A stretch of 64,000 nucleotides of DNA from Candidatus Heimdallarchaeota archaeon. Lineage in GTDB: Archaea > Asgardarchaeota > Heimdallarchaeia > Heimdallarchaeales > Heimdallarchaeaceae. Below are positions 799-31,495 of the stretch, piece after piece. How positions within the stretch are numbered: position 1 is the first letter of the stretch; each line of letters starts with the position of its first letter. The stretch covers positions 110,306 to 174,305 of the forward strand of contig JAUVXV010000006.1 of NCBI GenBank assembly GCA_030603365.1, written 5' to 3'. The notes under the pieces were generated by a model, which saw only the letters and a program-made list of their open reading frames with translations, did no database searches and was not told the DNA's origin. The translations under genes and the position numbers were made by a program.

Positions 799-827
799 TA
801 GGTAAGAATTTAGCAAAATAATACCAT
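799..827. promoter_or_regulatory. Island dyad site 1 (TAGGT-N19-ACCAT), between divergent genes
   Basis: Followed by TCACAGAC. TATA-like TTTTTATT lies ~21 nt away on both strands (848 on +, 778 on -). Confidence 0.7.
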
Positions 828-874
828 TCACAGACATTTTAACCATTTTTTTATTAAGTTAAAAGCAATTTTAT

Positions 875-1333
875 GTGTCTCTAATGTCCGATAATAGCAT
901 TTCCAGAAAGGTTGATATAAGTTGGGGATTTGAGCTCACTATAATAGATACCCCGAACACATTATATAGTTCAGTTTATGAATCTGAAAGAACAGAAGAA
1001 GCTTTATTAGAGATGCTAAAAAATAAGAGAAATAGATATTTCTATATTGTTAGTACTCCGAAAATGCGAATTGAATCAAGATCTTTTATTCAGAAGTTAA
1101 TGCAATTAAAGGATAAACTAAGAAATTTTGAATTTGTTTTTGTTAAAGGAAACAAGGATCCTGATGAAGAAATATTAAACTTGGCTTTATCACTAAAATG
1201 TCCAGTTATTTCTAATGATAAATTTAAACAGAGACATTACGATCGGTTTAGAAATAAAAAAATTGAGATATGGAGATTCAAAATTAATAAGAAGACAAAT
1301 TGTTTGAAAATATATGAAAAATGGAGACTATAG
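875..1333 (+). CDS. NYN/PIN-fold ribonuclease (Zc3h12a/Regnase-like)
   Basis: IIDTPN...DPDEEILNLALSLKCPVISNDKFK matches the D..DD.IL..A.....ISND.F acidic motif set. The real start may be ATG 884. Confidence 0.7.
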   Translation: MSLMSDNSISRKVDISWGFELTIIDTPNTLYSSVYESERTEEALLEMLKNKRNRYFYIVSTPKMRIESRSFIQKLMQLKDKLRNFEFVFVKGNKDPDEEILNLALSLKCPVISNDKFKQRHYDRFRNKKIEIWRFKINKKTNCLKIYEKWRL

Positions 1334-1354
1334 TAATCAAATATGGGTGTTTAG

Positions 1355-2014
1355 ATGGTTTATCAAATAAGAAGGATAGAAGCAGAGGACGATATAGCAG
1401 GGTTAAGTCTTGGTTTAGCAATTCTCCTACCTGTTTATAGTTATGATTTACTATTTGGTTTTACTATACAAAAATCAGGTTCAGAAACTCTAAGAATCTG
1501 TAAATATAGACCTATAGAAGAAAAGATAAAGATGTATAGCAACATTGATTTTGCTAAACATGATATCAAAGAAGAACTATTGATCAAGATAACAGACTCT
1601 CTGGATTATGTTCTTGAAGAATATAGTACTTTAGATGAAATATTTGCATATAGGAAAAATCAAATTTTAGATTCAAGTTTGAAAGGAGGAAATTTGAGTA
1701 ACTTAGTGTATTCTGTTTGTTATTATGAGAATAAACGACACTTCGGATTTTGCTTTATGAGAGATGAGAGAGATGAGCCAATATTACGATTCTTTAGAGT
1801 TGATGTTGATTATGGATCAGTATATCCAAGATCTCTTAGAAAAGACTATTATGAAGAACATAGATACTTTGGAATATCTCTAAGAGATTTAAAATACCGA
1901 GATTTTATGAAAGCTTTACTTGAAATACTCTTAGAAACACTTGAAATTATCCAAGAAGGAGAACCTAGTTTCAGAGAATTTCATAAGTATGCTGATAAAT
2001 TCACACTCTTTTAA
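1355..2014 (+). CDS. Hypothetical protein
   Basis: 219-aa ORF 21 nt downstream of the NYN gene; no motif recognised. Confidence 0.7.
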   Translation: MVYQIRRIEAEDDIAGLSLGLAILLPVYSYDLLFGFTIQKSGSETLRICKYRPIEEKIKMYSNIDFAKHDIKEELLIKITDSLDYVLEEYSTLDEIFAYRKNQILDSSLKGGNLSNLVYSVCYYENKRHFGFCFMRDERDEPILRFFRVDVDYGSVYPRSLRKDYYEEHRYFGISLRDLKYRDFMKALLEILLETLEIIQEGEPSFREFHKYADKFTLF

Positions 2015-2022
2015 TTTTTTGT

Positions 2023-2406
2023 TTATAAATTTTCTCTTCTATAATTCACATCATCTTCATGTTGATCATCAAAATCATTTTCTGATAAAAGAACTAGATC
2101 AAATTTAGCTCCAGATTGAAAATCAAGATGAACAACATTGTAATTGCTTCCAGGATAAACATTATCAGCTTTAAAATTTGATTTTAAAACTGAAATTAAT
2201 CTAGGATAAAAAGACTCTTCTGAAGGATTACCTGTAACAGAGAATATTACATCCATATCACTATCTGGTCTGTGTGTCCTAAGAGCTCGTGATCCAGCTT
2301 GAGCTATTCTAGAAATTTTCAGATTTGATTTTGTCATTACATTAACTATACTCTTCCATAGTCTATGATAATGAGCTTCACTATTCTTATTATTATTAAA
2401 TGTCAT
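2023..2406 (-). CDS. Minimal Pol-beta-superfamily nucleotidyltransferase (SMODS/OAS-like core only)
   Basis: AQAGSRALRTHRPDSDMDVIF (hGS...DxD) and a third acid in KFDLVL; only 127 aa. Confidence 0.8.
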   Translation of the reverse strand: MTFNNNKNSEAHYHRLWKSIVNVMTKSNLKISRIAQAGSRALRTHRPDSDMDVIFSVTGNPSEESFYPRLISVLKSNFKADNVYPGSNYNVVHLDFQSGAKFDLVLLSENDFDDQHEDDVNYRRENL

Positions 2407-2508
2407 GACAAAGTAATTGTTATTAAATTATAAAAAGCTTTAGAATTCCATTGCAGTTATACTGAAAACACATACAACAAAACCAAGTTTTTTAGATGCA
2501 ACAAGATT

Positions 2509-3279
2509 CTATTTGAAAATAAAGGTTTCATCAATTGGATTAGTCTTTATCTTCTTGTATGCGTTTTTCGATTCACTTAAAAGAAATTCTTTTTTTGGGA
2601 AACTGAAATTATATGAAACTAGTGATCTATTCCTAGAATCAAACAATTGCAGATTATCCTTTAGTTCAGAATCTTTAATATATTCAAAAAACAACTTCAG
2701 AGAATCTGTAAAAGTTTCAGGTTCATTGCTTTTGAAACAACGTACTAGTATTAATTCAATTGCAAAAGAAGGAATATTTCCAGTATTAGGAGAATTTTCA
2801 GGTAAATCTCTCCAATATTTTAGAATTCTAGCAGATCCTTTAAACAGATCACCATAACCTGCTATTTCAGCAACTTCTTTCATTGATCTTTGTGCTCTTC
2901 CCAGATCATCAGTTAAACCATATTTAGTTGGTAAAACATCCATATGAACTCCTCTTACAGTTATATTTACTGATCTCTTACGTATTATAGATTGTGTTGT
3001 AGAACAGCCTTTGAGAGTTGTTTGAAATCTTTCTAATATTTTTTCCATATCTTGTTTTGGGGAAAGCAGAACTACAGCATCAAGATCACTTTGTCCTTTG
3101 ATTCCTGTTCCCTTACCTATGGAACCACATTTCCAAATTTCTACCTTAAGGATATTCTTATTACCATCTAGACATTTGGAAACCGAATTTAAAGCTGCAT
3201 TATAATTTCTTATATCAGATATACTAGGTTTCAATTTCTTTGCTAAACTGACTAATCTATCTTCAAAACTCATTTTCAA
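2509..3279 (-). CDS. OAS/CD-NTase-like (SMODS) nucleotidyltransferase
   Basis: GSIGKGTGIKGQSDLDAVV, HMDVLP, RILKYW and PSFAIELI are the OAS/CD-NTase N-lobe and C-lobe signatures. Confidence 0.85.
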   Translation of the reverse strand: MKMSFEDRLVSLAKKLKPSISDIRNYNAALNSVSKCLDGNKNILKVEIWKCGSIGKGTGIKGQSDLDAVVLLSPKQDMEKILERFQTTLKGCSTTQSIIRKRSVNITVRGVHMDVLPTKYGLTDDLGRAQRSMKEVAEIAGYGDLFKGSARILKYWRDLPENSPNTGNIPSFAIELILVRCFKSNEPETFTDSLKLFFEYIKDSELKDNLQLFDSRNRSLVSYNFSFPKKEFLLSESKNAYKKIKTNPIDETFIFK

Positions 3280-3283
3280 TTCC

Positions 3284-4213
3284 TCAACTATACTTCTTTA
3301 CAATATTCCTTACTAAGGATTCTAGTTCTAATAAATCTTTTTGGACGAATTTTTGTTCACTTTTTTCCTGAGGATGTATAAAAAATGTCAAGACTTTATT
3401 AGATGCTAGCATTGAATCCTTATCAATAAAGTTTACAACATGCTTATCAAATAAATGGTGAATAATACTTCCAAATGTTTTAGTTTTAAACAAGTCAACA
3501 AGGAAATTTGAGTAATTATCTTTTAAAACACTCTCCATAGAATATCTAAAAAGAAATGCTCCAATTGCTAAACCATAGTCATCGTTCCTATTTATTTCTT
3601 CTATTGCTAAATCAATCATACTGTTTCTTCGTTCTTGTACTAATTGATTTTCTATGAATTTTATCTTGTTCTTTGCTTCGTGTATAAGGTATGGTGAGGT
3701 AAGAATTGCTTTTATCTTTAGTTCGATTTCTCTCAATTTCTTCTTATACCCATTTTTAACAGAATTACTAATTATATTATCTTGTTCAGATTCTTCATTT
3801 AATTCTGTCAAAATATAGAAATCTTCGTATTTTCTATGATATAAAATTGTTTTCCCTTCTTGATTTCTCTTTGAATAACCCCAATCAGTAAAGTACCAAG
3901 GTTTCTTAACTAGAATCATATTGAAAAGACTTTTTTTATCTGAAGGACTTGTCAATTCTTGAAAAAGCTGATAGAGATAATCTTCTGAATATTTCTTCAG
4001 ATATGCTGCTGTAGTTATTTGCCAGTGTATAAACTGTTCAAATAATTTATCACTGAGAAAAATGTCAGAAATTACTGGCTGAATTTTTACATAATCAGAA
4101 TTAGATGATTCATCTCTTGTTGTCAATGTAAGCTTCTTAATACTCTCAATTAGCAAATCATTTATTTCCTGAAATTCCTTAAGCTGTTCCGCAAATAGTG
4201 TTACAATATCCAT
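3284..4213 (-). CDS. Protein with C-terminal DUF4145/HEPN-like domain
   Basis: GAFLFRYSMESVLK...FGSIIHHL...NKVLTFFIHP resembles the HEPN (R..E, late His) pattern; the catalytic Rx4-6H motif is degenerate. Confidence 0.5.
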   Translation of the reverse strand: MDIVTLFAEQLKEFQEINDLLIESIKKLTLTTRDESSNSDYVKIQPVISDIFLSDKLFEQFIHWQITTAAYLKKYSEDYLYQLFQELTSPSDKKSLFNMILVKKPWYFTDWGYSKRNQEGKTILYHRKYEDFYILTELNEESEQDNIISNSVKNGYKKKLREIELKIKAILTSPYLIHEAKNKIKFIENQLVQERRNSMIDLAIEEINRNDDYGLAIGAFLFRYSMESVLKDNYSNFLVDLFKTKTFGSIIHHLFDKHVVNFIDKDSMLASNKVLTFFIHPQEKSEQKFVQKDLLELESLVRNIVKKYS

Positions 4214-4281
4214 CCGTTTTAAGCTCCGTCTTATAATAACTGATGTTAAAATTATACTTACTAGTTCATTAATGTATTTTG

Positions 4282-4701
4282 TTATTTCCTGAAATCATCA
4301 ATTGCTTTGTTAGCTAATTTATCTGCTTCTTTATTTTCTTCTCTCCGAATATGAGAATACGAAACCTTTTCAAAATAAGTTTCTTTCTTTTTTACTTCTT
4401 CAAAGAGCTCTTTTAGTTTTTCATTTCTTATTCTATATACACCTGTAAGATGATTAACAAGTAATTCAGAATCACTTAGAACATGTACTTTTCCTCTACA
4501 AACGCCTGCACACATGTCAAGCCCATAAATTAATGCGTTGTATTCAGCTTGATTATTTGTTAAACGGTTTCCAAGATATTTTGAACCTTTTTCTAATATG
4601 TTTCCTGACATATCTTTAATTATAAATCCTCCACCAGCTTTACCAGGATTACCTCTAGAACATCCGTCTACAAATAATCTAACCTCAAAACACTTCTTCA
4701 T
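4282..4701 (-). CDS. rnhA: Ribonuclease HI (archaeal/RNase_HI-like)
   Basis: FVDGCSRGNPGKAGGG, TNNQAEYNAL, SDSELLV, HIRREENKEADKLAN. The ATG at 4701 is preferred over the track's TTG at 4728. Confidence 0.92.
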   Translation of the reverse strand: MKKCFEVRLFVDGCSRGNPGKAGGGFIIKDMSGNILEKGSKYLGNRLTNNQAEYNALIYGLDMCAGVCRGKVHVLSDSELLVNHLTGVYRIRNEKLKELFEEVKKKETYFEKVSYSHIRREENKEADKLANKAIDDFRK

Positions 4702-4756
4702 CTCGAGTATACGTTTTTTAGGAAACAAATTAAAGGTTTTACTAAAATAAATGATA

Positions 4757-4785
4757 ATTGTAAAAAATATCTATAAAATTACCTT
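4757..4785 (-). promoter_or_regulatory. Island dyad site 2 (AAGGT-N19-ACAAT) upstream of the RNase HI/NTase cluster
   Basis: 19-nt spacer; TTTAATTT ~23 nt downstream on the - strand. Confidence 0.6.
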
Positions 4786-4896
4786 TTATTCTTCAAATTC
4801 CTAAATGTTTAATTAATAAAGTTCTAAAACTAAATAGGTAAGAAGAACTTAAAATTATGGACTCGGAGAGATCAGTATACCAAATAAAAATTCTAG

Positions 4897-5931
4897 CTAA
4901 CGTTCCAGATCTCTTAATTTCTGAAAAATTTTATCAGTCAGAATTTCTCTTTCTTTGCTATGATGAAATCTTTGATGGCAATTTGGACATACAGCAACAA
5001 CATTATCGGGAGAATCTGTTCCACCATCACTTAAGGGAACCAAATGATGTATCTCTAAAAAAGGTTCCTCATTTTCAGTTATGAAAGGCGCTGGACTATC
5101 GCAGCATTCACACTTACCCTTTGATCGTATCTTAGCATACTTGCGGACATTATGATCCCTTAAGTATTGTATAGTTTCAATTGTACTTTTCCTGATATTT
5201 TCTAGTTTGCTTCTTATGATTTCTAACAGATCACCCAAGTTTTTTTCTTCAACTATTTGTTCGATTAATTTCTCATAACTCTGAAGAATATCAGTAGAAA
5301 CGGCACTAGTGTCATATATCATTGATTTATCTTCATTCTCAGCGATATTAACTAACCAAGGATTAACCAATCTTAACAGATTTGTTTTCATTTCTATAAA
5401 AGTTTCTTCGTTCAGAACAGGATGTAGAAGTTTGATCTCTTGTGGAATGCTTAATTTGTAATAATAGTTTCGACCTCTCTTTCCTTTACTTAGAAGGCCT
5501 TCTTCAATTCTCTTAGTTATCTTATAAACTCTAAAAATAGCTAGATATCCTTGTTCTTGATTCTCAAAATAATTAAATGGAGCAATTGGATCCCAGACTT
5601 GAAAGAATCTGTTGCACAGATTTTCAAACATTTCATAATTAACATTAACCTTTAGATAAGAATCAATGAAGGCAACATATTCCAAAGGGAAAGGTTCATT
5701 CAAGATACTGTTTTCATTTAATGAACCTAAAGAAGATAGTTTGAATGTTGCTTTTGTTAATTTAGTATCAAGTAAGAAAGGACCGATATGAGGATTCATT
5801 TCCTTTTTACAGAGCAGTATTTGATGGTTTTTATATAAATTCTCAAAACCAAATGTCATAGAAAAGATATTTACAATCTCATCGCGTAATGCATATATTA
5901 GTTCCATGACATTCACCTTACTTAGTCTCAA
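4897..5931 (-). CDS. HNH endonuclease (McrA-like C-terminus) with a DUF1802/PUA-like N-terminal domain
   Basis: CECC...LEIHHLVPLSDGGTDSPDNVVAVCPNCHQRFH. The N-terminal QILLCKK/FLL/LAIFRVY pattern resembles DUF1802 (weaker call). Overlaps the dptH-like stop by 4 nt. Confidence 0.8.
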   Translation of the reverse strand: MRLSKVNVMELIYALRDEIVNIFSMTFGFENLYKNHQILLCKKEMNPHIGPFLLDTKLTKATFKLSSLGSLNENSILNEPFPLEYVAFIDSYLKVNVNYEMFENLCNRFFQVWDPIAPFNYFENQEQGYLAIFRVYKITKRIEEGLLSKGKRGRNYYYKLSIPQEIKLLHPVLNEETFIEMKTNLLRLVNPWLVNIAENEDKSMIYDTSAVSTDILQSYEKLIEQIVEEKNLGDLLEIIRSKLENIRKSTIETIQYLRDHNVRKYAKIRSKGKCECCDSPAPFITENEEPFLEIHHLVPLSDGGTDSPDNVVAVCPNCHQRFHHSKEREILTDKIFQKLRDLER

Positions 5932-15350: not shown

Positions 15351-15379
15351 ATGGTATTTTTTTAAATAATTATAACCAT
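15351..15379 (-). promoter_or_regulatory. Island dyad site 3 (ATGGT-N19-ACCAT, perfect) upstream of the dptF-like operon
   Basis: Perfect 5-bp inverted arms; TTATTAAT ~23 nt downstream on the - strand. Confidence 0.75.
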
Positions 15380-16313: not shown

Positions 16314-16342
16314 ATTGTAAAAACTGGAAAGAGAAATACCAT
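16314..16342 (-). promoter_or_regulatory. Island dyad site 4 (ATGGT-N19-ACAAT)
   Basis: TTTTAAAA begins 21 nt downstream on the - strand (16293). Confidence 0.7.
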
Positions 16343-16406: not shown

Positions 16407-17876
16407 TCATAATCCTCTTAATCTTGCATGGATGTAGTCATCTTTTTCATTGACTGAATAAAGAAATTCAGCTCTACCTTTTTCTGTTTGTTTTATATTT
16501 ACTAAATTTTTCCTATTTAGATCTGCAAGTGGTTTTGGAGGTTTTCTCTTCAGTTCATTTTCAGTAATTAAATTCTGATTTATTCTTTTTTGTATCAGCC
16601 ATTTTTTAATTTCAATTCGAATTCCGTATGCACTCATAGAACCTAAAGGTTTTGGAGTTTGTAGCTTTAAACCAGATATTCCTTTATTAACAACATCTTC
16701 TTTATATTTATCAAGAAGAAAATCAAGAATAACCTTTTCTTTTTGAGTTAAAATTGGTTCAGTAATTTGGTTTCTTTCTAAATCATAGTTCTTTCTTATT
16801 TTATTTATAATAGTATTTCCGCGTGACAGAAACATTACCTGTTCTCTTAGTTCCCAAGTTTTAATCTTACTAATGATTATCTCTTGTATCTTATCACTGT
16901 ATTTTTGATAGGCTAATATTTCTGCTGATTTCTTAAATAATACCCTTTGATAATGCTTTGGTAAAATTTTCAAATTTTCGAGAGATGAATAATAAATGAC
17001 ATCGAACACAGCTAGTGAGTACTCAAAAAATTCGAACTTTTTTTCAATCGGTTTTTCATTAATTTCTTCCTTATTCAAAATGTCTATCGTTCTATCTGCT
17101 AAAACACGTAACATGAAAATAAGATTAATAGCATGTTTTATCCTTTCAAGGAATAATTTACTGTAGTTCTTCTCACGAATTAATAGAATTTTATTAAAAT
17201 CCAGAAAAACTATATTTACATCATTTATTTTGATTTTTTTCTTGTTTCTTAAATCAAAATTAAGTTTCTTTAGATTTTTAGAATTTACTTCAATCATAGT
17301 ATGAGTATTTGATTCCATAACATGAAACTTACTAAAATCAGTGAAAACAGCTGATAAAATATCCATTTTTTCTGAAGTTTTTTCTCTGTTGCAAATTTTT
17401 GCGATTTTATCTAACTTTTCTTGTATCTTTTTTGTTTCAGTATTTACTTCTAGTGATACTTTTTTTGTTATAGTTCCAATAAGAGAAGGAAAAATCTCAA
17501 CTCGTTTTCTAGGTTTCAATAATTCTAAGTCATTTTCATTAATAATCCATTTAATATAGTTAGAAACAAAAGCAATAAGTGGTCGAATTGGTTCTTTGTC
17601 ACAAATATAACCTCTTGTATTTCTATAATAATTGTATGATTCAGTTGTTAACCCAATTTTGACTTTCCCCATCTTAGGAACGAAAAAATCGTGATTTTTA
17701 TCTTTATAATTATCTTCTTTTGTTTTGTTTTTCTTTGCAAAATAAAGTTGTTCAAGTTTTTGGCAGAACTTTTCACTGGTTTTAAGAAACTCTAGAGGTT
17801 TTCTAACATTTTCTTCATAAATTATCTCTAATAATGGAACAAAAAAACTGAAAGTCAAATCAATTTTATTTTTCAT
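16407..17876 (-). CDS. Hypothetical protein with probable C-terminal winged helix
   Basis: LTQKEKVILDFL...LADLNRKNLV...GRAEFLYSVN; ATGA overlap with the upstream regulator. Confidence 0.6.
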   Translation of the reverse strand: MKNKIDLTFSFFVPLLEIIYEENVRKPLEFLKTSEKFCQKLEQLYFAKKNKTKEDNYKDKNHDFFVPKMGKVKIGLTTESYNYYRNTRGYICDKEPIRPLIAFVSNYIKWIINENDLELLKPRKRVEIFPSLIGTITKKVSLEVNTETKKIQEKLDKIAKICNREKTSEKMDILSAVFTDFSKFHVMESNTHTMIEVNSKNLKKLNFDLRNKKKIKINDVNIVFLDFNKILLIREKNYSKLFLERIKHAINLIFMLRVLADRTIDILNKEEINEKPIEKKFEFFEYSLAVFDVIYYSSLENLKILPKHYQRVLFKKSAEILAYQKYSDKIQEIIISKIKTWELREQVMFLSRGNTIINKIRKNYDLERNQITEPILTQKEKVILDFLLDKYKEDVVNKGISGLKLQTPKPLGSMSAYGIRIEIKKWLIQKRINQNLITENELKRKPPKPLADLNRKNLVNIKQTEKGRAEFLYSVNEKDDYIHARLRGL

Positions 17877-19363
17877 TCTCTATCACCCAGAATATCATTT
17901 GAGTTATATTTCCACTCTTGGAATACTGTTTCATATCTTTCTGTAGGTAACTTCCATCTTCTACTATACATCTGATTGATAACAAACATTTCCTTTACAT
18001 CTTTTTTGAAAAACATATTAAACAGGCTCATACAATCAAATATCATTTCGGTTGGAATCCTTACAATAAAATGCAATCCTTGATCTGTCTCATTAACATA
18101 CTTTTGGCTATACAATTCTGGAAAAATTGACAACTGTTTATGAATTGTTAGCTGTTCTGAAGGATCTTTTGATAGAAACAGTACTAGATTTGATAAACCA
18201 AAAACATAGTTTGGATTGATTTTTGATCTGAAGTATTGATGTTTTTGTAAATTTTCAACTTGTTTTCGTGCTTCTTTCTCACTTATTCCAAAGTCATTTT
18301 TTATGGCATTTATTGACATTTCGTTTTTCATCAGCATATGATTGAGAATTTCTATTCCTGTTTTATGCAGATTCAAGACATGTTCCTGATTTTCCTTAAA
18401 TTCAGGAACAATAATTGGTAGATTCTTACTATCACTCAATTCTTCCCAGTCTAGAGCTGATGCAATCTTATAGTATGGTAAATCCCATTTTCCGTATCTA
18501 TAGTCATAATTGGCAAAATTGAACGACTTCAACCTGCTGTTCATTTCAAATTTGAATATATTGGAAGAAACAATTTCATTTCTCTCGTTAATAATATCAC
18601 ATAATTTCTGTAAATCATTCTTAACTTGATTATTATCGGGAGTTATATAATTGATCATCACTGATTGTGAATTAGAGTAACTAGTATAAATAGAATGCAA
18701 AAATGAACTATCTGGTAGTTCCTTGAAGAAGTCAATCTTAGAGGATAAGGGAACATTATAGACAATACCATAAATAGCTAAATTCAGTACTGAATAGTTC
18801 AGAGATAAACCTGTATAAATGAGCTGTCGTTCCCTTAATTTCCTTTTATATTTTGAGAGGTTTGATGAATCCATTTTTATCTTATCTAACAATTCATTAT
18901 TGCTCATTGTCTGTTCCTTAAGTATGACCTGAAAAACTTCAAATTCCTTTGTATTAAACTTGGGCATAATTTTGGAGCGATAATCAAAGAATATTTGTAG
19001 AAAAGTATTCCAGGATAGTGGGATTTTCTTCTTTTTGAAATAATCTAAAATATTAAAAAAGTGTTTTGATGATTCATCGGAACAACAAAAATTTAGATAA
19101 GAGAAAGGAACTATATAACTGAAATTCTCAAATTTAATTGTTTTTCGATTCTTTGACCAAAAACTGTACCATTCATCGAATTTCTGCTTCTTCTTTGTTA
19201 ATTTAGTTCGAATATAGAAGCAAATTATATCCCATTCAGGTGAATCTAATCTAGCTTCATATTTAATAACTAATCTTTCAAAATCTTTGAAAAGATCCTG
19301 CAGAATTTCTTCTGCTAGTTCCATTCTTTTCTTCTGTTCTGGATTCTGAATGAAAGTCATCAA
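17873..19363 (-). CDS. Tandem wHTH + Lrp/AsnC-like transcriptional regulator
   Basis: Two HTH units (MSNNELLDKIKMDSSNLSKYKRKLRER; MSINAIKNDFGISEKEARKQVENL), each followed by an NY..L/FGL linker and a ferredoxin-like block. Confidence 0.7.
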   Translation of the reverse strand: MMTFIQNPEQKKRMELAEEILQDLFKDFERLVIKYEARLDSPEWDIICFYIRTKLTKKKQKFDEWYSFWSKNRKTIKFENFSYIVPFSYLNFCCSDESSKHFFNILDYFKKKKIPLSWNTFLQIFFDYRSKIMPKFNTKEFEVFQVILKEQTMSNNELLDKIKMDSSNLSKYKRKLRERQLIYTGLSLNYSVLNLAIYGIVYNVPLSSKIDFFKELPDSSFLHSIYTSYSNSQSVMINYITPDNNQVKNDLQKLCDIINERNEIVSSNIFKFEMNSRLKSFNFANYDYRYGKWDLPYYKIASALDWEELSDSKNLPIIVPEFKENQEHVLNLHKTGIEILNHMLMKNEMSINAIKNDFGISEKEARKQVENLQKHQYFRSKINPNYVFGLSNLVLFLSKDPSEQLTIHKQLSIFPELYSQKYVNETDQGLHFIVRIPTEMIFDCMSLFNMFFKKDVKEMFVINQMYSRRWKLPTERYETVFQEWKYNSNDILGDRE

Positions 19364-19534: not shown

Positions 19535-19773
19535 ATGTTAAACCAAGGAGGTGAAAAGGAAAATGAAAGGACCAATAGAATTTCCACCAGACGACCCAGA
19601 ACCCTGGCCTCCATAAGGTCAGGTGATAGGGACAAGAGAGGAGCATTAAATCTCCTCTTAGTTCCTAGGAGATATACGAATATTCTGGGAATACTCGCGT
19701 GTTCCCTTGAATCGTAAAACACAGGAACTTTCCCAAGATAACTAAATCTAACCCTATTTATTTCTTTTTTCTT
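19535..19773 (+). ncRNA. Putative structured small transcript containing a 17-aa sORF
   Basis: GC-richer patch with stems TAGGGAC..AGAGGAG/CTCCTCT..GTTCCTA (19627-19667) and GGGAATAC-TCGC-GTGTTCCC (19687-19706), ending in a T-tract at 19761-19774. The ends are estimated. Confidence 0.45.
19563..19616 (+). CDS. Small Pro-rich peptide MKGPIEFPPDDPEPWPP
   Basis: Perfect RBS GGAGGTGA at 19547-19554, 8 nt before the ATG; below the ORF-track size cutoff. Confidence 0.55.
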   Translation: MKGPIEFPPDDPEPWPP

Positions 19774-19784
19774 TGTAGTGTAAG

Positions 19785-19813
19785 ATGGTGAATTTTCCAA
19801 TCTTTCCTACCAT
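19785..19813 (+). promoter_or_regulatory. Island dyad site 5 (ATGGT-N19-ACCAT + TTTGAGAC)
   Basis: TTTAAAAA begins at 19834 (+21). Confidence 0.75.
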
Positions 19814-20230: not shown

Positions 20231-20259
20231 ATGGTATTTTTCCTCCAAATCTTTACAAA
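20231..20259 (+). promoter_or_regulatory. Island dyad site 6 (ATGGT-N19-ACAAA + TTTGAGAC)
   Basis: TTTAAAAC begins at 20280 (+21). Confidence 0.72.
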
Positions 20260-20689: not shown

Positions 20690-20718
20690 ATGGTATTATT
20701 CTTTCTATTTTTTACAAG
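20690..20718 (+). promoter_or_regulatory. Island dyad site 7 (ATGGT-N19-ACAAG + ATTGAGAC)
   Basis: TTTTTATT at ~20740. Confidence 0.7.
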
Positions 20719-23495: not shown

Positions 23496-23497
23496 TC

Positions 23498-24719: not shown

Positions 24720-24748
24720 ATGGTATTTTTCTCTAGATTTTTTATAAA
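24720..24748 (+). promoter_or_regulatory. Island dyad site 8 (ATGGT-N19-ATAAA + ACATAGAC)
   Basis: Right arm degenerate, but spacing, AGAC and TTTTTATA (~24770) are conserved. Confidence 0.6.
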
Positions 24749-25392: not shown

Positions 25393-25489
25393 AAGATGAT
25401 TTTACTCCTATTTCTTTATTTTGTTTCATCTCCTAGATGTATTTATTTTGCTCCCAAAAGTTCATAATATACAGTTATAACTATTTGCG

Positions 25490-25714: not shown

Positions 25715-25746
25715 ACATTCTTCTTTTACTAATTCAAAGAATTTTC

Positions 25747-26894: not shown

Positions 26895-27033
26895 TTATTC
26901 AACTCCTTTTTAGTAATATTATAATTCGAAGATTCTATTTAATCACCTATGAAGATAAGAAAGAAAAAAAGTGACAAACATCATTAAAACAAAAACGAAA
27001 AAAAAGTAAGCATTTGAAAAAAGAGAAAGAAGA

Positions 27034-29403
27034 TTAGATCTTCTTTTGTTTCTTCTTCTTCAAAACTATTGGTACCAGTGCTATTGGTATTATGAGAATT
27101 GATATTATTCCTATCGTTTCCCCAAATTCTGGTACGTCTGGCGGATTTTCTAGCAGCATCAAGTATACTTCTGGTCTTCCTGCTACATCTCTAGTATAGA
27201 TATAAACATCAACACCTTCTCCATCTGGTATTGTGAATGTGAAATAGTAATCATCGTTCGAGATATGTGTTACCGATGGATAACTTATGCTTGTATCTTC
27301 ATAATGCACTTCAGGTGTTATATCCCAAATTGCCAGATTATCTCTAATAGTTGCATCTATCCTGTAGGTTTCTCCACTCACGTGTGATGGCCAAATACCG
27401 ATCATCGTTGGGTTCACTGCATCCACAATTGAAGTAGTTTTCAGCTCATCTTCCTTTAATATTACTGGGAATAATGGATCATTCAATACTGGGAAGGTTA
27501 TTGGACTGAACAATCCAGTATCTCCTACCACCTCATAGTTGATATCTATACTTGGATCAGTTACCCAGGTGTCTATTTGTCCTTGCACAGTCAGGTTCAT
27601 CTGTTTTATTCTGAAATAGAGGTTGTTGAATTGTAAAGTTGTATTAGTATTTGCGTCAATTAATGCTCCATCTGCTGCACCGCTAGAGACTGTATCCCAA
27701 AGAATAACCTCTTCTCCACCATCAGCTATAGTATAACTTTCTGGACTTCCATCATCTACATCACCTGAAAACCAGATAGTATTGTTGACCTCAAGGTAAA
27801 TTCCTACTTCAAATAGCACATCTATACCAGCAGTAATGTCTATACTGAAAAGATCCTCATCTTTAGTAAGATTACCAAGTGGGAAGTTGTAAGTAAATTC
27901 ATACAAAGTCAGATCGCCAAATGGAGTGATGAAATTGTAGAAGTAGCTAATAGGGTCAAACAGCTGAAGCTTGTATCCATAGACTTCAACCTCTCCTATA
28001 ACTTCAGTTCCAGCAAATCCTTCTTCAGGAGTGATAGTTACATCTGTATTGATACTATTTCCAGGGATAACATATCGTGGTGTCTTTTGCTCGAAGAGTA
28101 AAGGAACATACAATCCTGAGAACAAACCTATAGTGAAATTTACAAAACTTATTCCACCAGTCAAATCCTGATAATAGTATTCCTTTATTCCCAAATTCTT
28201 CGTTATCTTGTTACAGATTGGTAAATCAGTTATCGTCTCAAACATATAGAGAGATCCACCGTTATCATCCACGTAGACTTCACCATCTACGTTAAGAGTC
28301 TCAATCAAGAAGTAATATGTGGAATTCTCAGTAAGACCTCCAATACTCGCACTGTGACTAGTTCTAAAACCTATCATGTTCAAAGTTTGATCCAAAGATC
28401 CTTGAGATGTTCCATAACGAACAGTAATCTGAGCATCTCTAGTAGTATCAAAATGGATTGTTGCTTCATCTCTCAAACCTATGATTCTATAATGACCGGG
28501 AACAGCTGGATAAGTAACATCTATCCGCACTGTGAAAGTGACATCAGCGATAGGAATCACCATAGTGTAGCTGTTTGTTCTATTTGCTCTCCACCATTCA
28601 GCATTAAAGACTGGATAGTTGTAGACTATTCCACCCAAAGCATCATCTGCATCGATATCTGCTTCTAGACAGTGTATATCAAAATAGAATTCGTCATCTA
28701 GTAATACTCCTTTATAGAGTTCTAGATTGGCGTTTATCGTCTCTCCATCAGTTATATCTTTGTATTCATAGGTGCTTCTTCTGGTTTCATAAATCTGATA
28801 ACTGAAGTAAATCTCTCCATCTCCTTTACCAGTTATCTCATGTTTGTCATGAATAACTGCACTAACCAAAGTAACAGTTATGTAGGCAGTTTCATCAACT
28901 TCAGGAGGAAGGATGACATTATCTTCAGCTATCACTTCTAGATAGAAGGTAGCATCAGTACCTGTATGCTCAAACACTTCATAGTTACCGTAGGTGGCAA
29001 CAAATGTAGCTAAATCAAGTGACAACATTGTGAAGTTAAAGTCTCCTATAAAATCGTCATCATCTAAATCATCGTAGTCCCAGCAGTCAATATAGATGTA
29101 AAGATTGCTTGCATCTTCTATTAAACTGTCAAAGAGAACGAAATTGAACGTTACATTATTACCAGTGTCTGTTTCTATCTGTGCGGTTTCAAATTCTGAA
29201 CCATTAACATCAAAATTGAAATAGAGCTCTCCTGCACCTAGTAATGCTCCGTCGTGGTCGTCAATAATATAGACATCTAAAAGAGTAATCTTAACGTAAC
29301 CTACAGCATTGGCTGCTTGAGCAGGTAGGAACGGAAAACTACTGACGAACAGAATAGATAATAATATAGTTGATAGTAATTTTTTATTCATTAATTTTCT
29401 CAC
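27034..29403 (-). CDS. Secreted surface protein with two C2-like domains, an Fn3-like domain and a PEFG-type C-terminal sorting signal
   Basis: Signal peptide; DCWDYDDLDDDDFIG and CLEADIDADDALG; YGTS...GLTENSTYYF; VPEFG + TM + basic tail. Confidence 0.75.
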   Translation of the reverse strand: MRKLMNKKLLSTILLSILFVSSFPFLPAQAANAVGYVKITLLDVYIIDDHDGALLGAGELYFNFDVNGSEFETAQIETDTGNNVTFNFVLFDSLIEDASNLYIYIDCWDYDDLDDDDFIGDFNFTMLSLDLATFVATYGNYEVFEHTGTDATFYLEVIAEDNVILPPEVDETAYITVTLVSAVIHDKHEITGKGDGEIYFSYQIYETRRSTYEYKDITDGETINANLELYKGVLLDDEFYFDIHCLEADIDADDALGGIVYNYPVFNAEWWRANRTNSYTMVIPIADVTFTVRIDVTYPAVPGHYRIIGLRDEATIHFDTTRDAQITVRYGTSQGSLDQTLNMIGFRTSHSASIGGLTENSTYYFLIETLNVDGEVYVDDNGGSLYMFETITDLPICNKITKNLGIKEYYYQDLTGGISFVNFTIGLFSGLYVPLLFEQKTPRYVIPGNSINTDVTITPEEGFAGTEVIGEVEVYGYKLQLFDPISYFYNFITPFGDLTLYEFTYNFPLGNLTKDEDLFSIDITAGIDVLFEVGIYLEVNNTIWFSGDVDDGSPESYTIADGGEEVILWDTVSSGAADGALIDANTNTTLQFNNLYFRIKQMNLTVQGQIDTWVTDPSIDINYEVVGDTGLFSPITFPVLNDPLFPVILKEDELKTTSIVDAVNPTMIGIWPSHVSGETYRIDATIRDNLAIWDITPEVHYEDTSISYPSVTHISNDDYYFTFTIPDGEGVDVYIYTRDVAGRPEVYLMLLENPPDVPEFGETIGIISILIIPIALVPIVLKKKKQKKI

Positions 29404-29465
29404 CCTAAATTAACTGCTTAAAAATAGAAATAAGAGGTATTTAAACTTGTGGTGAAAGTTTCTAA

Positions 29466-29494
29466 TTGGTAAAAATCAAGGTTATTTTTACATA
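29466..29494. promoter_or_regulatory. Island dyad site 9 (TTGGT-N19-ACATA), between divergent genes
   Basis: TTTAAATA begins exactly 21 nt away on the - strand (29445); TTAAATA at 29512 on +. Confidence 0.65.
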
Positions 29495-29539
29495 AATTTT
29501 CGAGAAAAAACTTAAATATTCAAATAAACTTAAACCGCT

Positions 29540-29806
29540 ATGCAATGCAATATGAAATGTCCTAAATGCCAAGAAATACATGAAGTCAACAGTAGATACT
29601 GCATAAGTTGCGGTTTCGATCTTGAACCTTACATCATCAGATTCAAAGATAAGCACTTACCAATTCATTTTGATGGGGGTATAATTGATGCTATTGTTGG
29701 AGAAGAGGAAGAAGACACTTGTTGTGACTGTTGTGGATGTTGTTGTGGAGGAAGCAGTAAGAAAAAAGACCAAGGGTGCTGCATGAGTCTATTAGATTGT
29801 CTATAA
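29540..29806 (+). CDS. Zinc-ribbon protein with Cys-rich C-terminal tail
   Basis: CPKC...CISCG, then CCDCCGCCC and GCC. Confidence 0.7.
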   Translation: MQCNMKCPKCQEIHEVNSRYCISCGFDLEPYIIRFKDKHLPIHFDGGIIDAIVGEEEEDTCCDCCGCCCGGSSKKKDQGCCMSLLDCL

Positions 29807-29931
29807 TCCAATTATCTCTTACAAGAGAAAGATCATAATGGTTTCATATTTTCTCAAGAACTACACTACAACAGAATATGTTAAAACTATTCATTTTGCA
29901 AGGATAAATCAATAACAAAATAGTTAGAATG

Positions 29932-31417
29932 CTAGATTTCATTTCCTAAGATATCAGCTGAATCATATTTCCATTCTTGGAATACTGTTTCATATCTCTC
30001 TGTTGGTAATAGCCATCTTCTACTATACATTTGATTGATAACAAACATCTCCTTTACTTCTTTTTGGAAATATTTATTGAACAAGCTCATACTATCAAAA
30101 ATCATCTCATTGGGAATTCTAATTATAAATTGTAATCCTTCCTCTTCTTCAGAGATGTATTTCTGACTATACAATTCTGGGAATACAGACAACTGTTTGT
30201 GCAATTGCATCTGTTCTGCAGGATCTCTTGAAAGAAAGAGTACTAGGTTTGATAATCCAAAAACATAGTTGGGATTAGTACGGGTTTTGAAATAGTTCAA
30301 CTTACGAAAATTTTCTACTTGCTTTCTCGCTTCTTTTTCACTTATACCAAGATCGTTTTTTATTGCACTTATTGACAACTTATTTTTTAGAAGTATATTA
30401 TTGAGTATCTCAATCCCAGTCTTATGCAAGTTTAGAATTTTTTCCTTTACCTCATGAAACTCTGATAAGATGAAGGGGATTTTCTTATTATCTCTAGCTT
30501 TCGTTGAGGAGATAGCTGAGGATATTTTATAGAAGGGTAAATCCCATTTTCCTAAACGATAATCATAATAAGAGAAATTGAATGATTTTAACCGTGATAG
30601 CATGTCAAATTGATAAAAATTTGAAGAAATTAGAGTGTGTTTATCTTCTAAATCTTGTTTAAGTTTTCGCAAATCTTCTTTTACTTGAGGATTATCAGGA
30701 GTCACATAATTTACCATTACCTATTGTGAGTTAGAATAACTTGTATAAATAGAATGTAGGAATGCACTCTCTGGCAATTCCTTAAAGAAATCTAGTTTGG
30801 AATCCAAAGCAACAGTAAATACCAGACCATAGATGGCTAAATTTAAAGCAGAGTAATTGAGAGAGTCCTTCAAAAATGAGAGTTCGTTCCAGTAACCGTC
30901 TCTTATATTTTGAAAGATTGGATGGATCCATCGAGAGTTTTTCTAATAGTGTTTTGTTATCCATTGTCTGCTCTTTGAGGATTGTTTCAAAGACAAGAAA
31001 TTCATTCTTATTGAATTTGGGCATAATCTTAGATCTATAGTCAAAAAATATCTGTAAGTAAATATCCCAAGAGAGTTTAAGATTAGCATTTGAAAAATAT
31101 TCTAGAATATCTAGAAGATAGGAAGAAGATTCATCAGAACTATGAAGGTTATAGTAAGTAGAAGGAACTAGATAACTGAAATTCTCGAATATAATGGATT
31201 TTCTATTAGTAGACCAAAAAATATTCTAGTCATCAAATTGTTTGTTAGTTCTAGCTAACTTTGTTCTAATATAAAAACAGATAATGTCCCATGCAGGAGT
31301 GTCTAACTTAGCTTCAAAGGTTACCACTAATTGCTCAAAATCAGAGTAGAGCTCTTGAAGAATTTTCTTAGCTAACTCCATTCTCTGCTTCTGCTCGGGA
31401 TTCTTAGTGAAAGGCAT
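29932..31417 (-). pseudogene. Pseudogenised paralogue of the 17873..19363 regulator
   Basis: Three track fragments align collinearly with the intact copy. There is TAG for Trp at 31226-31228, a frameshift near 30855 and TAG for Ser at 30721-30723. Confidence 0.85.
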
Positions 31418-31466
31418 CAGATTTAACATAGTTCTAACTTACATAATCTTTACCATATGACTGCAA

Positions 31467-31495
31467 ATGGTTTTTTTAGAAGTCATTATTACCAT
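31467..31495 (+). promoter_or_regulatory. Island dyad site 10 (ATGGT-N19-ACCAT + TTTTAGAC)
   Basis: Perfect arms; TTTAAATC at 31516 (+21). Confidence 0.75.

What the first reader, a model, noticed from the sequence alone, without database searches (positions are those of the whole stretch)
799..31495. A 29-bp dyad (ATGGT-N19-ACCAT) at a fixed distance from TATA links the whole island into an apparent defence regulon
Seen: ten intergenic sites (799, 4757, 15351, 16314, 19785, 20231, 20690, 24720, 29466, 31467) share GT-N19-AC (one has GT-N19-AT) with exactly 19 nt of spacer. Three are perfect ATGGT/ACCAT dyads and six are followed by NNNNAGAC. In each, a TATA-like box starts ~21-23 nt beyond the dyad. 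At 799 it does so on both strands, serving divergent genes. The sites precede the dptFGH-HNH operon, the RNase H/HEPN/NTase cluster, the NYN RNase, the left HNH gene, the Zn-finger genes and surface proteins. I saw no convincing copy right of ~32 kb. Established: archaeal activators bind just upstream of BRE/TATA, and bacterial defence islands have dedicated regulators (e.g. WYL-type CapW/BrxR). Inference: one dimeric activator, most plausibly the tandem-wHTH protein at 17873..19363, co-induces several unrelated defence modules, forming a coordinated immune regulon.
Basis: partly seen in the sequence, partly recalled or inferred. Interest (0 to 1): 0.88.

Follow-up and report, generated by a model that had tools for sequence, protein, structure and literature searches.

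The report
Shared operator of an Asgard defence regulon
A 29-base palindromic control site sits exactly 20 bases in front of the TATA box of about a dozen promoters in one gene island of a Heimdall-group (Asgard) archaeon. It travels through related genomes with one regulator gene set that elsewhere sits beside CRISPR-Cas genes. It is therefore most likely the switch site of a lineage-specific immune and cell-surface gene network.

Summary
The six best positions in the whole 3.65-Mb genome all lie in this island. The consensus is WTGGTA-N17-TACMAT, often followed by N4-(A/C)GAC. A TATA-like box starts exactly 20 nt after the dyad in 25 of 42 sites.

The motif co-occurs across three genera of Heimdallarchaeaceae with a conserved set of three genes:
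- a Pro-rich micropeptide of 16-24 aa
- the 496-aa protein, which is a fused tandem Lrp/AsnC regulator
- a 489-aa partner with a C-terminal winged helix.

In other genomes this set flanks CRISPR-Cas loci, and the dyad sits at cas6 or cas8b promoters. In this genome no Cas1 or Cas7 gene was found. Here the dyad fronts Zn-ribbon and surface genes, an HNH/NYN-like gene pair, an RNase H/CD-NTase operon, a Dnd/Dpt-like operon and, left of the window, a GIY-YIG gene.

Activation, dimer binding and co-induction are untested. The conserved core targets are not defence genes. The scan met the same three genes before, next to CRISPR in another genome (e1-5718381).

The parts
799..827 (.). Dyad site in a divergent promoter region. 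It serves the HNH gene (leftwards) and the NYN-like 152-aa plus 219-aa genes (rightwards). An AGAC box lies on the + side.
   Evidence: Leave-one-out score 18.6 bits. Rank 8 genome-wide with the relatives-only dyad matrix. TATA-like box about 20 nt away on both sides. HNH domain E 2e-7, NYN hint E 0.06. The HNH orthologue in G021 also has a dyad upstream.
4757..4785 (-). Dyad site upstream of the operon RNase H-like / 309-aa / SMODS (CD-NTase-like) / small NTase (4728 down to 2023). No GAC box.
   Evidence: Leave-one-out score 22.7 bits. Rank 4 genome-wide, 23.3 bits. TATA-like box at about +21, and an in-frame ATG 56 nt after the dyad. Gene families.
15351..15379 (.). Perfect ATGGT-N19-ACCAT dyad upstream of the DndF/SspF-like - 594 aa - 1883 aa (mad8/HerA-like) - HNH operon (15261 down to 4897). 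Its T-rich polarity points away from the operon, and it has no GAC box.
   Evidence: One of only 9 perfect dyads in the genome, 3 of them in the island. Rank 6 genome-wide, 20.5 bits, with the relatives-only dyad matrix. It drops to background in the 41-nt leave-one-out test. Gene families.
16314..16342 (-). Dyad site directly after the partner gene. It is the promoter of the 290-aa gene 15379-16251, which occupies a variable gene slot. No GAC box.
   Evidence: Leave-one-out score 22.7 bits. Rank 2 genome-wide, 25.6 bits. TATA-like box at +20. The same slot holds an OLD nuclease in G002, a 288-aa gene in G001, a 615-aa gene or DUF2997 plus radical SAM genes in metagenome loci, and a Zn-ribbon gene in clade B.
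16407..17876 (-). 489-aa partner protein, whose gene overlaps the regulator gene by 4 nt. It has a C-terminal winged-helix domain; the rest has no recognised fold.
   Evidence: AlphaFold2 pLDDT 77. VIA-align Z 8-9.4 to YceH, ORC2-WH and MarR over residues 371-489. No Pfam, PADLOC or PDB sequence hit. Adjacent to the regulator in most loci.
17873..19363 (-). 496-aa candidate regulator. It has an N-terminal helical domain followed by two complete Lrp/AsnC units, each an HTH plus a RAM domain.
   Evidence: A PDB profile search hits LrpA on residues 143-258 and FL11/PH1519 on 332-466. AlphaFold2 pLDDT 88, pTM 0.86. Best fold match is NirDL, a fused Lrp-like pair, E 2e-6, followed by many Lrp/AsnC regulators. 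The HTH1 recognition helix is conserved across genera.
19563..19616 (+). 17-aa Pro/Asp-rich micropeptide gene with a strong Shine-Dalgarno sequence. It lies divergent from the regulator, between the regulator and dyad 19785.
   Evidence: Conserved peptides of 15-24 aa ending in DPxP(W/F)P-type motifs lie about 180-245 nt from the regulator ATG in 11 loci of three regulator clades and in 3 metagenome loci.
19785..19813 (.). Perfect dyad with a GAGAC box. It is the promoter of Zn-ribbon gene 19881-20189. A TATA-like box also lies on the regulator side.
   Evidence: Leave-one-out score 18.5 bits. Rank 4 with the relatives-only dyad+GAC matrix. TATA box at +20. Orthologous arrangement in L053-L055 and L100-L102.
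20231..20259 (+). Dyad with a GAGAC box. It is the promoter of Zn-ribbon gene 20342-20653.
   Evidence: Best hit in the genome with model R2, trained on relatives only (E 1.5e-6). TATA box at +20. The orthologous gene has the same site in at least 9 genomes.
20690..20718 (+). Dyad with a GAGAC box. It is the promoter of the 901-aa and 375-aa (PKD-like) genes, 20790-24625.
   Evidence: Leave-one-out score 35.7 bits. R2 E 5.6e-5. The orthologue of the 901-aa gene has the site in L004, L015, L100 and L101.
24720..24748 (+). Dyad (right arm ATAAA) with an AGAC box. It is the promoter of the 188-aa gene 24826-25392.
   Evidence: Rank 1 genome-wide with the relatives-only dyad matrix, 25.7 bits. Leave-one-out score 25.6 bits. 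TATA-like box at +21.
29466..29494 (+). Weak dyad between the 789-aa gene (27034-29403, minus strand) and the 88-aa gene (29540-29806, plus strand).
   Evidence: 14.7 bits, rank 19 genome-wide. Background in the leave-one-out test. TATA-like box at +16/17 rather than +20. A weak hit lies at the orthologous spot in G008 (L053 6965).
29941..31420 (-). Decayed second copy of the regulator gene, with two in-frame TAG stops.
   Evidence: Six-frame match to the 496-aa protein, 63-69% identity, in two pieces each with one TAG. Fragments also found by blastp.
31467..31495 (.). Perfect dyad with an AGAC box. It is the promoter of Zn-ribbon gene 31539-31865 and the 187-aa gene, divergent from the dead regulator copy.
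   Evidence: Leave-one-out score 27.0 bits. R2 E 0.007. TATA box at +20. Same arrangement in L100.

Best explanation
The 29-bp element (WTGGTA, a 17-nt T-rich spacer, TACMAT) is the operator of the regulator module encoded in the island. That module is the fused tandem Lrp/AsnC protein (17873-19363), probably working with its 489-aa winged-helix partner and perhaps modulated by the adjacent 17-aa Pro-rich micropeptide.

Because the site ends exactly 20 nt before the TATA box, leaving about 13 nt to the BRE position, the bound protein would sit just upstream of TFB and TBP. This is the position from which archaeal Lrp-type activators (Ptr2, LysM, Ss-LrpB) work. At divergent promoters one centred dyad would serve both directions.

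The module is ancestrally linked to CRISPR-Cas in Heimdallarchaeaceae. In this genome, where no Cas1 or Cas7 gene was found, its operator stands in front of Zn-ribbon and surface genes and of four or five unrelated nuclease or nucleotide-signalling operons. One input can therefore set the level of much of the island.

Shown: the motif, its restriction to the island, its fixed spacing to TATA, its conservation, its co-occurrence with the three genes, the Lrp fold and the CRISPR linkage.

Inferred: which protein binds, the sign of regulation, and any role of the peptide.
For: Specificity of the motif:
- All strong hits in the 3.65-Mb genome lie at C16:97-142 kb.
- The relatives-only matrix puts the island at ranks 1-6 genome-wide, with zero control hits at that level.
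- That matrix reproduces exactly the ten sites in the window.
- Of 62 R2 hits at E of 5 or less, 15 lie in the 50-kb island (binomial P about 6e-15).

Promoter link:
- The TATA-like box starts 20 nt after the dyad in 25 of 42 sites, while the distance to the start codon varies from about 33 to 190 nt.

Conservation:
- 14 hits at E of 0.01 or less in 12 of 30 family genomes, where about 0.3 are expected by chance.
- The hits lie upstream of orthologues of the window's target genes.

Co-occurrence with the regulator:
- The cassette [496 aa][489 aa]-dyad-[Zn-ribbon] recurs in at least 8 genomes with unrelated flanking genes.
- Three metagenome loci show peptide, then dyad, then targets.
- A dyad lies next to the regulator gene in G001 (GGTA-N17-TACC 94 nt from its start) and in L054 and L055.

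DNA-binding fold:
- Two full Lrp/AsnC units.
- The HTH1 recognition helix is conserved in all genera.

Defence link:
- Dyad 20.1 bits, TATA +20, between cas6 and cas8b-cas7-cas5 in Ca. Heimdallarchaeum aukensis.
- Dyad before cas6-cas1-cas2-cas4, next to a 37-nt-repeat CRISPR array, in G001.
- Dyad before cas6-cas8b-cas7-cas5-cas3 in G008.
- OLD nuclease (G002) and HNH (G021) genes behind dyads.

Literature:
- Archaeal Lrp activators bind just upstream of BRE at a highly constrained position, with multiple sites spaced two or three helical turns apart (PMC2995911).
Against: - No binding or expression data exist. No transcription start site is mapped, so the TATA assignment is by sequence only.
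- Canonical Lrp dimers read 13-15-bp palindromes (PMC2715240 abstract). Here the conserved arms are 23 bp apart centre to centre, and the T-tracts in the spacer are direct rather than inverted, so the binding geometry is unexplained.
- The partner's winged helix cannot be separated from the regulator by co-occurrence. In G001 the partner gene lies 9.5 kb from the regulator but on the same contig, with a dyad beside it.
- Clade-B cassettes show no dyad upstream of the regulator or peptide.
- No convincing dyad was found at the G006 type III locus or at the second G005 regulator copy.
- The defence-gene sites lack the GAC box, and individually they are not significant with the full-length relatives-only model R2 (E 0.2-3.7).
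- A position upstream of TATA does not exclude repression by DNA wrapping.
Confidence: 0.7

Rival explanations
1. The element is a real operator, but it is read by a different protein. Candidates are the 489-aa partner's winged helix acting alone, or a regulator encoded elsewhere. On this view the tandem Lrp protein only senses a ligand or binds another site such as the GAC box.
For: The partner has a winged-helix domain. It always lies in the same neighbourhood as the dyad, including G001, where a 19.5-bit dyad lies right after the partner gene, 9.5 kb from the regulator. The dyad arms are too far apart for one canonical Lrp dimer.
Against: A dyad also lies 94 nt from the regulator's own start in G001, far from the partner. 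HTH1 of the 496-aa protein is far more conserved than the partner, which drops to 24-31% identity, matching the conserved GGTA core. No other DNA-binding gene travels with the motif.
Confidence: 0.14
2. The element is a protein-independent promoter enhancer. Phased T-tracts would give curved DNA upstream of TATA, spread with duplicated promoters, and there would be no dedicated regulator.
For: The spacer T-tracts are direct repeats about 11 nt apart, and an A/T run follows the GAC box. G002 carries many near-identical copies that look like duplicated promoter modules.
Against: The invariant positions are the G/C-containing arms GGT and AC, not the T-tracts. The arms are an inverted repeat with a strict 17-nt spacing. 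Sites in this genome share no similarity beyond the motif, so they are not recent duplicates. Restriction to loci that hold the regulator set is unexplained by curvature alone.
Confidence: 0.08
3. The dyads are recombination or cassette-boundary sites, integron-like or element ends, used to assemble the defence island. Their nearness to TATA boxes would be incidental.
For: The sites lie at borders between unrelated gene modules. The slot after the partner gene holds a different gene in each genome. One site in G008 abuts a tRNA-like fragment.
Against: The sites lie 5' of genes. The GAC box and TATA lie on the gene side, at a spacing fixed to the base pair. No integrase or transposase domain was found in the island genes scanned. 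Orthologous genes keep the site across genomes, including cas operons. The window and nearby loci hold no tRNA gene.
Confidence: 0.04
4. Chance similarity of AT-rich intergenic DNA.
For: The genome is 33% G+C. The minimal pattern ATGGT-N19-AC occurs at background frequency genome-wide (414 observed, 417 expected).
Against: Leave-one-out tests, matrices trained on relatives only, the reversed-sequence control, the spacer control and cross-genome conservation all reject it.
Confidence: 0.01

Closest known systems
Archaeal Lrp/AsnC (FFRP) activators with upstream sites: Ptr2 (M. jannaschii), LysM and Ss-LrpB (Sulfolobus)
   Same: The HTH plus RAM fold. A binding site just upstream of BRE/TATA at a tightly constrained distance. 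Spacing of about two helical turns between contact points. Sites in the regulator's own control region (PMC2995911).
   Different: Here two Lrp units and an extra N-terminal domain are fused in one 496-aa chain, encoded next to a winged-helix partner and a micropeptide. The site is a 29-bp dyad with 6-bp arms and a 17-nt spacer, not a 13-15-bp palindrome. The targets are immune and surface genes, not metabolic genes. Nothing has been tested biochemically.
Csa3a/Csa3b (CARF + wHTH) regulators of CRISPR-Cas in Sulfolobales (PMC5389559 abstract)
   Same: An archaeal transcription factor encoded beside cas genes, with sites in cas promoters.
   Different: No CARF domain was recognised. PADLOC matches to Csa3 and CasR cover only the HTH segments, at E about 1e-4. 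The sensing part here is of Lrp RAM type. The regulon also extends to non-CRISPR defence and surface genes.
Bacterial defence-island regulators: RptR (PMC12255303) and WYL-type BrxR/CapW (own knowledge)
   Same: A small dedicated regulator encoded in a defence island, with repeated or palindromic sites in the island's promoters and strong genomic association with defence genes.
   Different: Those are bacterial repressors acting at sigma-70 promoters, usually on one operon. This is an archaeal TATA/BRE promoter architecture with about a dozen separate promoters. The fold is different and the sign of regulation is unknown.
NirDL / AhbAB siroheme decarboxylase (PDB 4ch7, 4czd)
   Same: The best structural match: a covalently fused pair of Lrp/AsnC-like units.
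   Different: Those proteins are enzymes. The present protein keeps conserved HTH recognition helices, has regulator-type genomic context and shows no link to haem synthesis.
Peptide-receptor regulator pairs (RRNPP, phage arbitrium AimR/AimP; own knowledge, and the comparison made in scan note e1-5718381)
   Same: A short peptide gene is encoded next to a transcription factor that controls immunity-related genes.
   Different: The regulator has no TPR receptor fold. The peptide has no evident signal sequence or processing site. Peptide binding is pure conjecture.

Membership tests
Lrp/AsnC (FFRP) transcription regulators | N-terminal HTH followed by a RAM (alpha-beta sandwich) domain | tested here: met
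   A profile search hits LrpA and FL11 over full length on both halves. AlphaFold2 model pLDDT 88. Foldseek matches NirDL at E 2e-6 and many Lrp/AsnC regulators at probability about 1.0.
Lrp/AsnC (FFRP) transcription regulators | A subunit of about 150 aa that forms dimers or octamers and reads a 13-15-bp palindrome per dimer | tested here: not met
   The protein is 496 aa, with two fused units and a 130-aa N-terminal domain. The conserved DNA element is a 29-bp dyad with a 17-nt spacer.
Lrp-type upstream activation (Ptr2, LysM, Ss-LrpB) | A site just upstream of BRE/TATA at a constrained distance | tested here: met
   A TATA-like box starts 20 nt after the dyad in 25 of 42 sites. The criterion comes from PMC2995911. 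TATA boxes are assigned by sequence only.
Lrp-type upstream activation (Ptr2, LysM, Ss-LrpB) | The protein binds the site and stimulates TBP/TFB recruitment | not testable with these tools
   Needs gel-shift, footprinting and in vitro transcription assays.
CRISPR-associated regulators (Csa3/CasR type) | Encoded next to cas genes, with sites in cas promoters | tested here: met
   Regulator homologues flank type I-B or type III cas genes in G001, G005, G006 and G008. Dyads lie at cas6 or cas8b promoters in three of them. This does not hold in the window's own genome, where Cas1 and Cas7 were not found in an 89%-complete assembly.
CRISPR-associated regulators (Csa3/CasR type) | A CARF sensor domain | tested here: not met
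   Pfam finds none. PADLOC Csa3, CasR and CARF models align only to the HTH segments at E 4e-5 to 7e-4. The fold is Lrp/RAM.
WYL-type defence regulators (BrxR/CapW) | A WYL ligand-sensing domain next to a wHTH | tested here: not met
   No WYL hit in Pfam or PADLOC for either protein. The structure shows RAM domains.
Integron-like cassette recombination sites | Sites at the 3' ends of cassettes, with an adjacent site-specific recombinase | tested here: not met
   The sites lie 5' of genes with TATA at +20. No recombinase domain was seen in the island genes scanned. The N-terminal part of the partner protein remains without a recognised fold.
RRNPP/arbitrium-type peptide signalling | A TPR-type receptor-regulator and an exported, processed peptide | tested here: not met
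   The regulator has an Lrp fold. The peptides are 15-24 aa and acidic and Pro-rich, without a hydrophobic leader. Peptide binding cannot be tested here.

The most novel reading that the evidence does not exclude
The micropeptide, tandem Lrp regulator and winged-helix partner form a peptide-gated immune switch of Heimdallarchaeaceae. The Pro-rich peptide, or a product derived from it, would bind the RAM domains or the partner and toggle the regulator at the 29-bp operator. CRISPR-Cas, or in this genome a whole island of nucleases and nucleotide-signalling systems plus surface proteins, would then be turned on together. This would be an archaeal counterpart of quorum- or arbitrium-like control of immunity, in the closest known relatives of eukaryotes.
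Probability: 0.2. Interest if true: 0.85.

Novelty: new variant of a known kind. Interest (0 to 1): 0.62.

Why it matters
Almost nothing is known about gene-specific transcription control in Asgard archaea, or about how archaeal defence islands are regulated.

This work gives a precise, testable operator-regulator pair: a defined 29-bp site, base-pair-exact promoter geometry, and named proteins. The pair is conserved across three genera. It connects CRISPR-Cas with non-CRISPR defence systems (Dnd/Dpt-like, CD-NTase-type, and HNH, GIY-YIG and OLD nucleases) and with surface proteins.

It suggests that, in this lineage, immune genes arriving in an island are wired into an existing circuit by acquiring one operator. 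It also provides a handle, through synthetic DNA and recombinant proteins, to study regulation in organisms that are very hard to culture.

Tried and rejected
- The minimal core pattern is at background frequency genome-wide, so enrichment had to be shown with fuller models.
- The 41-nt model R1 and the relatives-only model R2 weight the GAC box and A/T run heavily and under-score the defence-gene sites. A dyad-only matrix resolved this.
- The ESM Atlas gave only generic HTH look-alikes for the regulator and nothing usable for the partner.
- Foldseek found no fold for the partner. VIA-align recognised only the C-terminal winged helix, at middling Z.
- The 496-aa and 489-aa proteins are not paralogues.
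- No tRNA gene or att-like border was found.
- The regulator has no relatives on viral contigs.
- The genome-contig and metagenome scans rested on one or two peptide patterns and returned only family members.
- No dyad was found at the G006 type III locus or at the second G005 regulator copy.
- The dyad in G001 was first read as a CRISPR leader element. This was rejected because the repeat orientation (3' end ATTGAAAT) puts the leader at the other end of the array. It is therefore taken as the cas6 promoter (repeat orientation from own knowledge).
- Literature searches found no description of this regulator or motif.
Targets in G002 and in the metagenome loci were therefore named only by blastp against the window's proteins.

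Full report
**Context.** The window is C16:110306-174305 of a 3.65-Mb, 33% G+C, 17-contig assembly that is 89% complete. Records that hold relatives of its genes are titled Candidatus Heimdallarchaeota or Heimdallarchaeaceae. Other genera of the same family include Ca. Heimdallarchaeum aukensis and endolithica. It is therefore an Asgard archaeon with TATA/BRE promoters.

**1. The observation.**
- The bare core ATGGT-N19-AC is at background frequency genome-wide (414 observed, 417 expected). In the window it occurs 20 times against 5 expected.
- A 41-nt matrix built from the oriented sites finds every strong hit of the genome inside C16:97-142 kb.
- In the leave-one-out test, eight sites keep 18-36 bits, with 0-1 equal-scoring positions elsewhere. 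Sites 15351 and 29466 drop to background there.
- The decisive test is independent of this genome. A 29-nt dyad matrix trained only on 26 sites from other genomes ranks 24720, 16314, 20231, 4757, 20690 and 15351 as the six best of 7.3 million positions. Sites 799, 31467 and 29466 rank 8, 17 and 19.
- A reversed-sequence control has no hit at or above 20 bits. At 16 bits or more it has five hits, which equals the number of real hits outside the island.
- The spacer is strict. TGGTA-Nx-TACMA hits the island only at x = 17.
- Further copies lie left of the window, at C16:103892 (a divergent GIY-YIG / 386-aa promoter) and C16:97718. One lies on another contig, at C15:379079 before a transglutaminase-like gene.

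**2. Anatomy.** Forty-two aligned sites from this genome and its relatives give AA-ATGGTAaTTTTt-N7-TTTTTACaAT-TTTn-AGAC-N12-TTTAWAW.
- True dyad symmetry is limited to the six-base arms. The T-tracts of the spacer are direct repeats about 11 nt apart.
- A TATA-like octamer starts exactly 20 nt after the dyad in 25 of 42 sites. No other offset on that side exceeds 9, and no offset on the upstream side exceeds 4.
- The distance to the start codon varies from about 33 to 190 nt. The element is therefore positioned relative to the promoter, not the coding sequence.
- At divergent regions (799, L001:13586, 19785) TATA-like boxes lie about 20 nt out on both sides.
- The (A/C)GAC box is present at the Zn-ribbon, 901-aa and 188-aa type promoters. 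It is absent at the defence-gene and cas promoters.

**3. Conservation and what travels with it.**
- A family-wide scan found 14 hits at E of 0.01 or less in 12 of 30 relatives, where about 0.3 are expected.
- These hits lie upstream of orthologues of the window's Zn-ribbon gene 20342 and its 901-aa gene, next to orthologues of the 489-aa and 496-aa genes.
- Larger loci show a cassette [496 aa][489 aa]-dyad-[Zn-ribbon, about 105 aa] in at least eight genomes of the same genus. The regulator is only 38% identical in these, and the flanking genes are unrelated housekeeping genes.
- The closer relative G008 has partner, regulator, dyad, Zn-ribbon, dyad, Zn-ribbon, a 786-aa gene and a weak dyad.
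- Three metagenome contigs repeat the order partner-regulator, micropeptide, dyad, 904-aa, dyad, 373-aa, dyad, Zn-ribbon.
- The gene directly after the partner always stands behind a dyad but differs between genomes. It is a 290-aa gene here, an OLD-family nuclease in G002, and a 288-aa gene in G001. In metagenome loci it is a 615-aa gene or DUF2997 plus radical SAM genes, and in clade B a Zn-ribbon gene.
- G002 carries an expanded set of at least 13 sites, many nearly identical.

**4. The candidate regulator.**
- The 496-aa protein is not a generic tandem wHTH. It is an N-terminal helical domain followed by two complete Lrp/AsnC units.
- A profile search hits Pyrococcus LrpA on residues 143-258 and FL11 on 332-466.
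- The AlphaFold2 model has pLDDT 88.
- The best fold match is the fused Lrp-like pair NirDL, followed by many Lrp/AsnC regulators.
- The recognition helix of the first HTH (a D-x-S-N-I/L-S-K-Y-K type motif) is conserved in all genera. The second HTH helix diverges outside the genus.
- The 489-aa partner overlaps the regulator gene by 4 nt and has a C-terminal winged helix (Z 8-9.4, a middling score). Otherwise it has no recognised fold.
- Homologues in public databases are labelled hypothetical.
- Window 29941-31420 is a dead second copy of the regulator gene, with two TAG stops.

**5. The CRISPR link.**
- In G001 the partner gene is followed by a CRISPR array of about 30 units with a 37-nt repeat. 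A 17.5-bit dyad with TATA at +21 then stands in front of cas6, a Zn-ribbon gene, cas1, cas2 and cas4. A second dyad (19.5 bits) lies right after the partner gene, and a third lies 94 nt from the regulator's start codon.
- In Ca. Heimdallarchaeum aukensis the gene pair lies 0.5 kb from cas6. An ATTGTA-N17-TACAAT dyad (20.1 bits, TATA +20) fills the cas6-cas8b gap.
- In G008, of the window's own genus, a third paralogue of the pair is divergent from cas6-cas8b-cas7-cas5-cas3. The peptide gene and a 15.3-bit dyad lie in between.
- In G006 the regulator sits between a Cas10 operon and cas1.
- The window's own genome shows no Cas1 or Cas7, though the assembly is incomplete.

**6. The micropeptide.** Peptides of 15-24 aa ending in DPxP(W/F)P-type motifs, each behind a strong Shine-Dalgarno sequence, lie about 180-245 nt from the regulator's start on the divergent strand. 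This holds in all three regulator clades and in the metagenome loci. In L054 and L055 the peptide gene has its own dyad promoter. This agrees with scan note e1-5718381, which described the same three genes next to CRISPR in another genome.

**7. Targets in this genome.**

| Site | Genes behind it |
|---|---|
| 799 | HNH gene (E 2e-7) and NYN-like gene with a 219-aa gene, divergent |
| 4757 | RNase H-like / 309-aa / SMODS cyclase-like / small NTase operon |
| 15351 | DndF/SspF-like - 594 aa - 1883 aa (mad8/HerA-like) - HNH operon |
| 16314 | 290-aa gene |
| 19785, 20231, 31467 | Three Zn-ribbon paralogues |
| 20690 | 901-aa and PKD-like 375-aa genes |
| 24720 | 188-aa gene |
| 29466 | 789-aa and 88-aa genes |
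| L001:13586 (left of window) | GIY-YIG gene |

The island also holds QueC/TGT-like, TIR, SLOG and RNase III genes without a dyad.

**8. Mechanism.**
- Best reading (confidence 0.7): the dyad is the operator of the tandem Lrp regulator, probably together with its partner.
- The dyad ends about 13 nt before the BRE position. This matches what is described for archaeal Lrp activators: a site just upstream of BRE at a highly constrained position, and contact points two or three helical turns apart (PMC2995911). I therefore favour activation, at roughly 55:45 over repression by wrapping.
- The phased T-tracts suggest bent DNA that lets two HTH1 helices reach arms 23 bp apart. This is inference.
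- The GAC box may be a contact for HTH2 or for the partner. This is speculation.
- Rivals are another reader protein (0.14), regulator-independent curved-DNA promoter modules (0.08), recombination sites (0.04) and chance (0.01).

**9. Comparison and novelty.**
- The element works like an Lrp-type upstream site and like bacterial defence-island regulators (RptR, PMC12255303; WYL-type BrxR/CapW) or archaeal Csa3.
- It fails defining features of each. It has no 13-15-bp palindrome and no 150-aa subunit, and it has neither a CARF nor a WYL domain.
- I found no paper describing the regulator or the motif.
- It is a new variant of a known kind: a fused Lrp regulator module with a private 29-bp operator that wires CRISPR-Cas, other defence systems and surface genes in Heimdallarchaeaceae.

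**Limits.** There are no expression or binding data. TATA boxes are assigned by sequence. Several relatives are fragmented metagenome-assembled genomes.

Noticed in passing
window 19563-19616 (+): A 17-aa Pro/Asp-rich micropeptide gene with a strong Shine-Dalgarno sequence lies divergent from the regulator. It is conserved as a 15-24-aa peptide ending in DPxP(W/F)P-type motifs in all three regulator clades, including the CRISPR-linked ones.
   Followed up: yes
window 29941-31420 (-): A pseudogene copy of the 496-aa regulator (63-69% identity, two in-frame TAG stops), divergent from Zn-ribbon gene 31539. The regulator / Zn-ribbon module was duplicated and one regulator copy decayed.
   Followed up: partly
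G000 C15:379079-379120 (locus L090 about 3080-3121): The only good motif copy outside the island. It lies upstream of a transglutaminase-like 429-aa gene and a class-V aminotransferase gene. A TnpB/Cas12f-like ORF lies 1.4 kb upstream. In clade-B relatives the regulator cassette sits next to the same aminotransferase family, so this may be a remnant of that cassette.
   Followed up: partly
L091 (G001:C18) 2670-5142: A CRISPR array of about 30 units with a 37-nt repeat lies between the partner gene and a dyad-fronted cas6-cas1-cas2-cas4 operon. One repeat-spacer unit is duplicated (4422-4498 and 4499-4575, 99% identical).
   Followed up: partly
L092-L095 (G002 contigs C103, C12, C102, C248): More than ten nearly identical copies of the 29-mer, with subfamily-specific conserved flanks, lie between small genes. 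This looks like an expanded or duplicated promoter-module family in another genus. In some copies the TATA-like box lies at about +26 instead of +20.
   Followed up: partly
L071 (G030:C43) 9968-10028: A palindromic dyad lies between a secreted subtilase/TSP3 gene and a Gtr1/RagA-type small GTPase gene. A eukaryote-like GTPase may therefore belong to this regulon in a sister species.
   Followed up: no
L010 (G008:C134) 1486-1536: A dyad copy directly abuts a tRNA-like T-arm fragment (GGGTTCGAACCCC) and has no TATA box at +20. ARAGORN finds no tRNA. This may be a remnant of an integration junction.
   Followed up: no
L001 (C16:90306-110305), left of the window: The island continues to the left with QueC, a TGT-like gene, a ThsB-type TIR gene, a SLOG gene, a GIY-YIG gene and an RNase III gene. 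Only the GIY-YIG / 386-aa divergent promoter (L001:13586) and a site at L001:7366 carry the dyad.
   Followed up: partly
window 25747-26894 (-): The DUF2997 plus radical SAM (Fer4_12) gene pair has no dyad in this window. In metagenome locus L102 its orthologues sit directly behind the dyad that follows the partner gene.
   Followed up: partly
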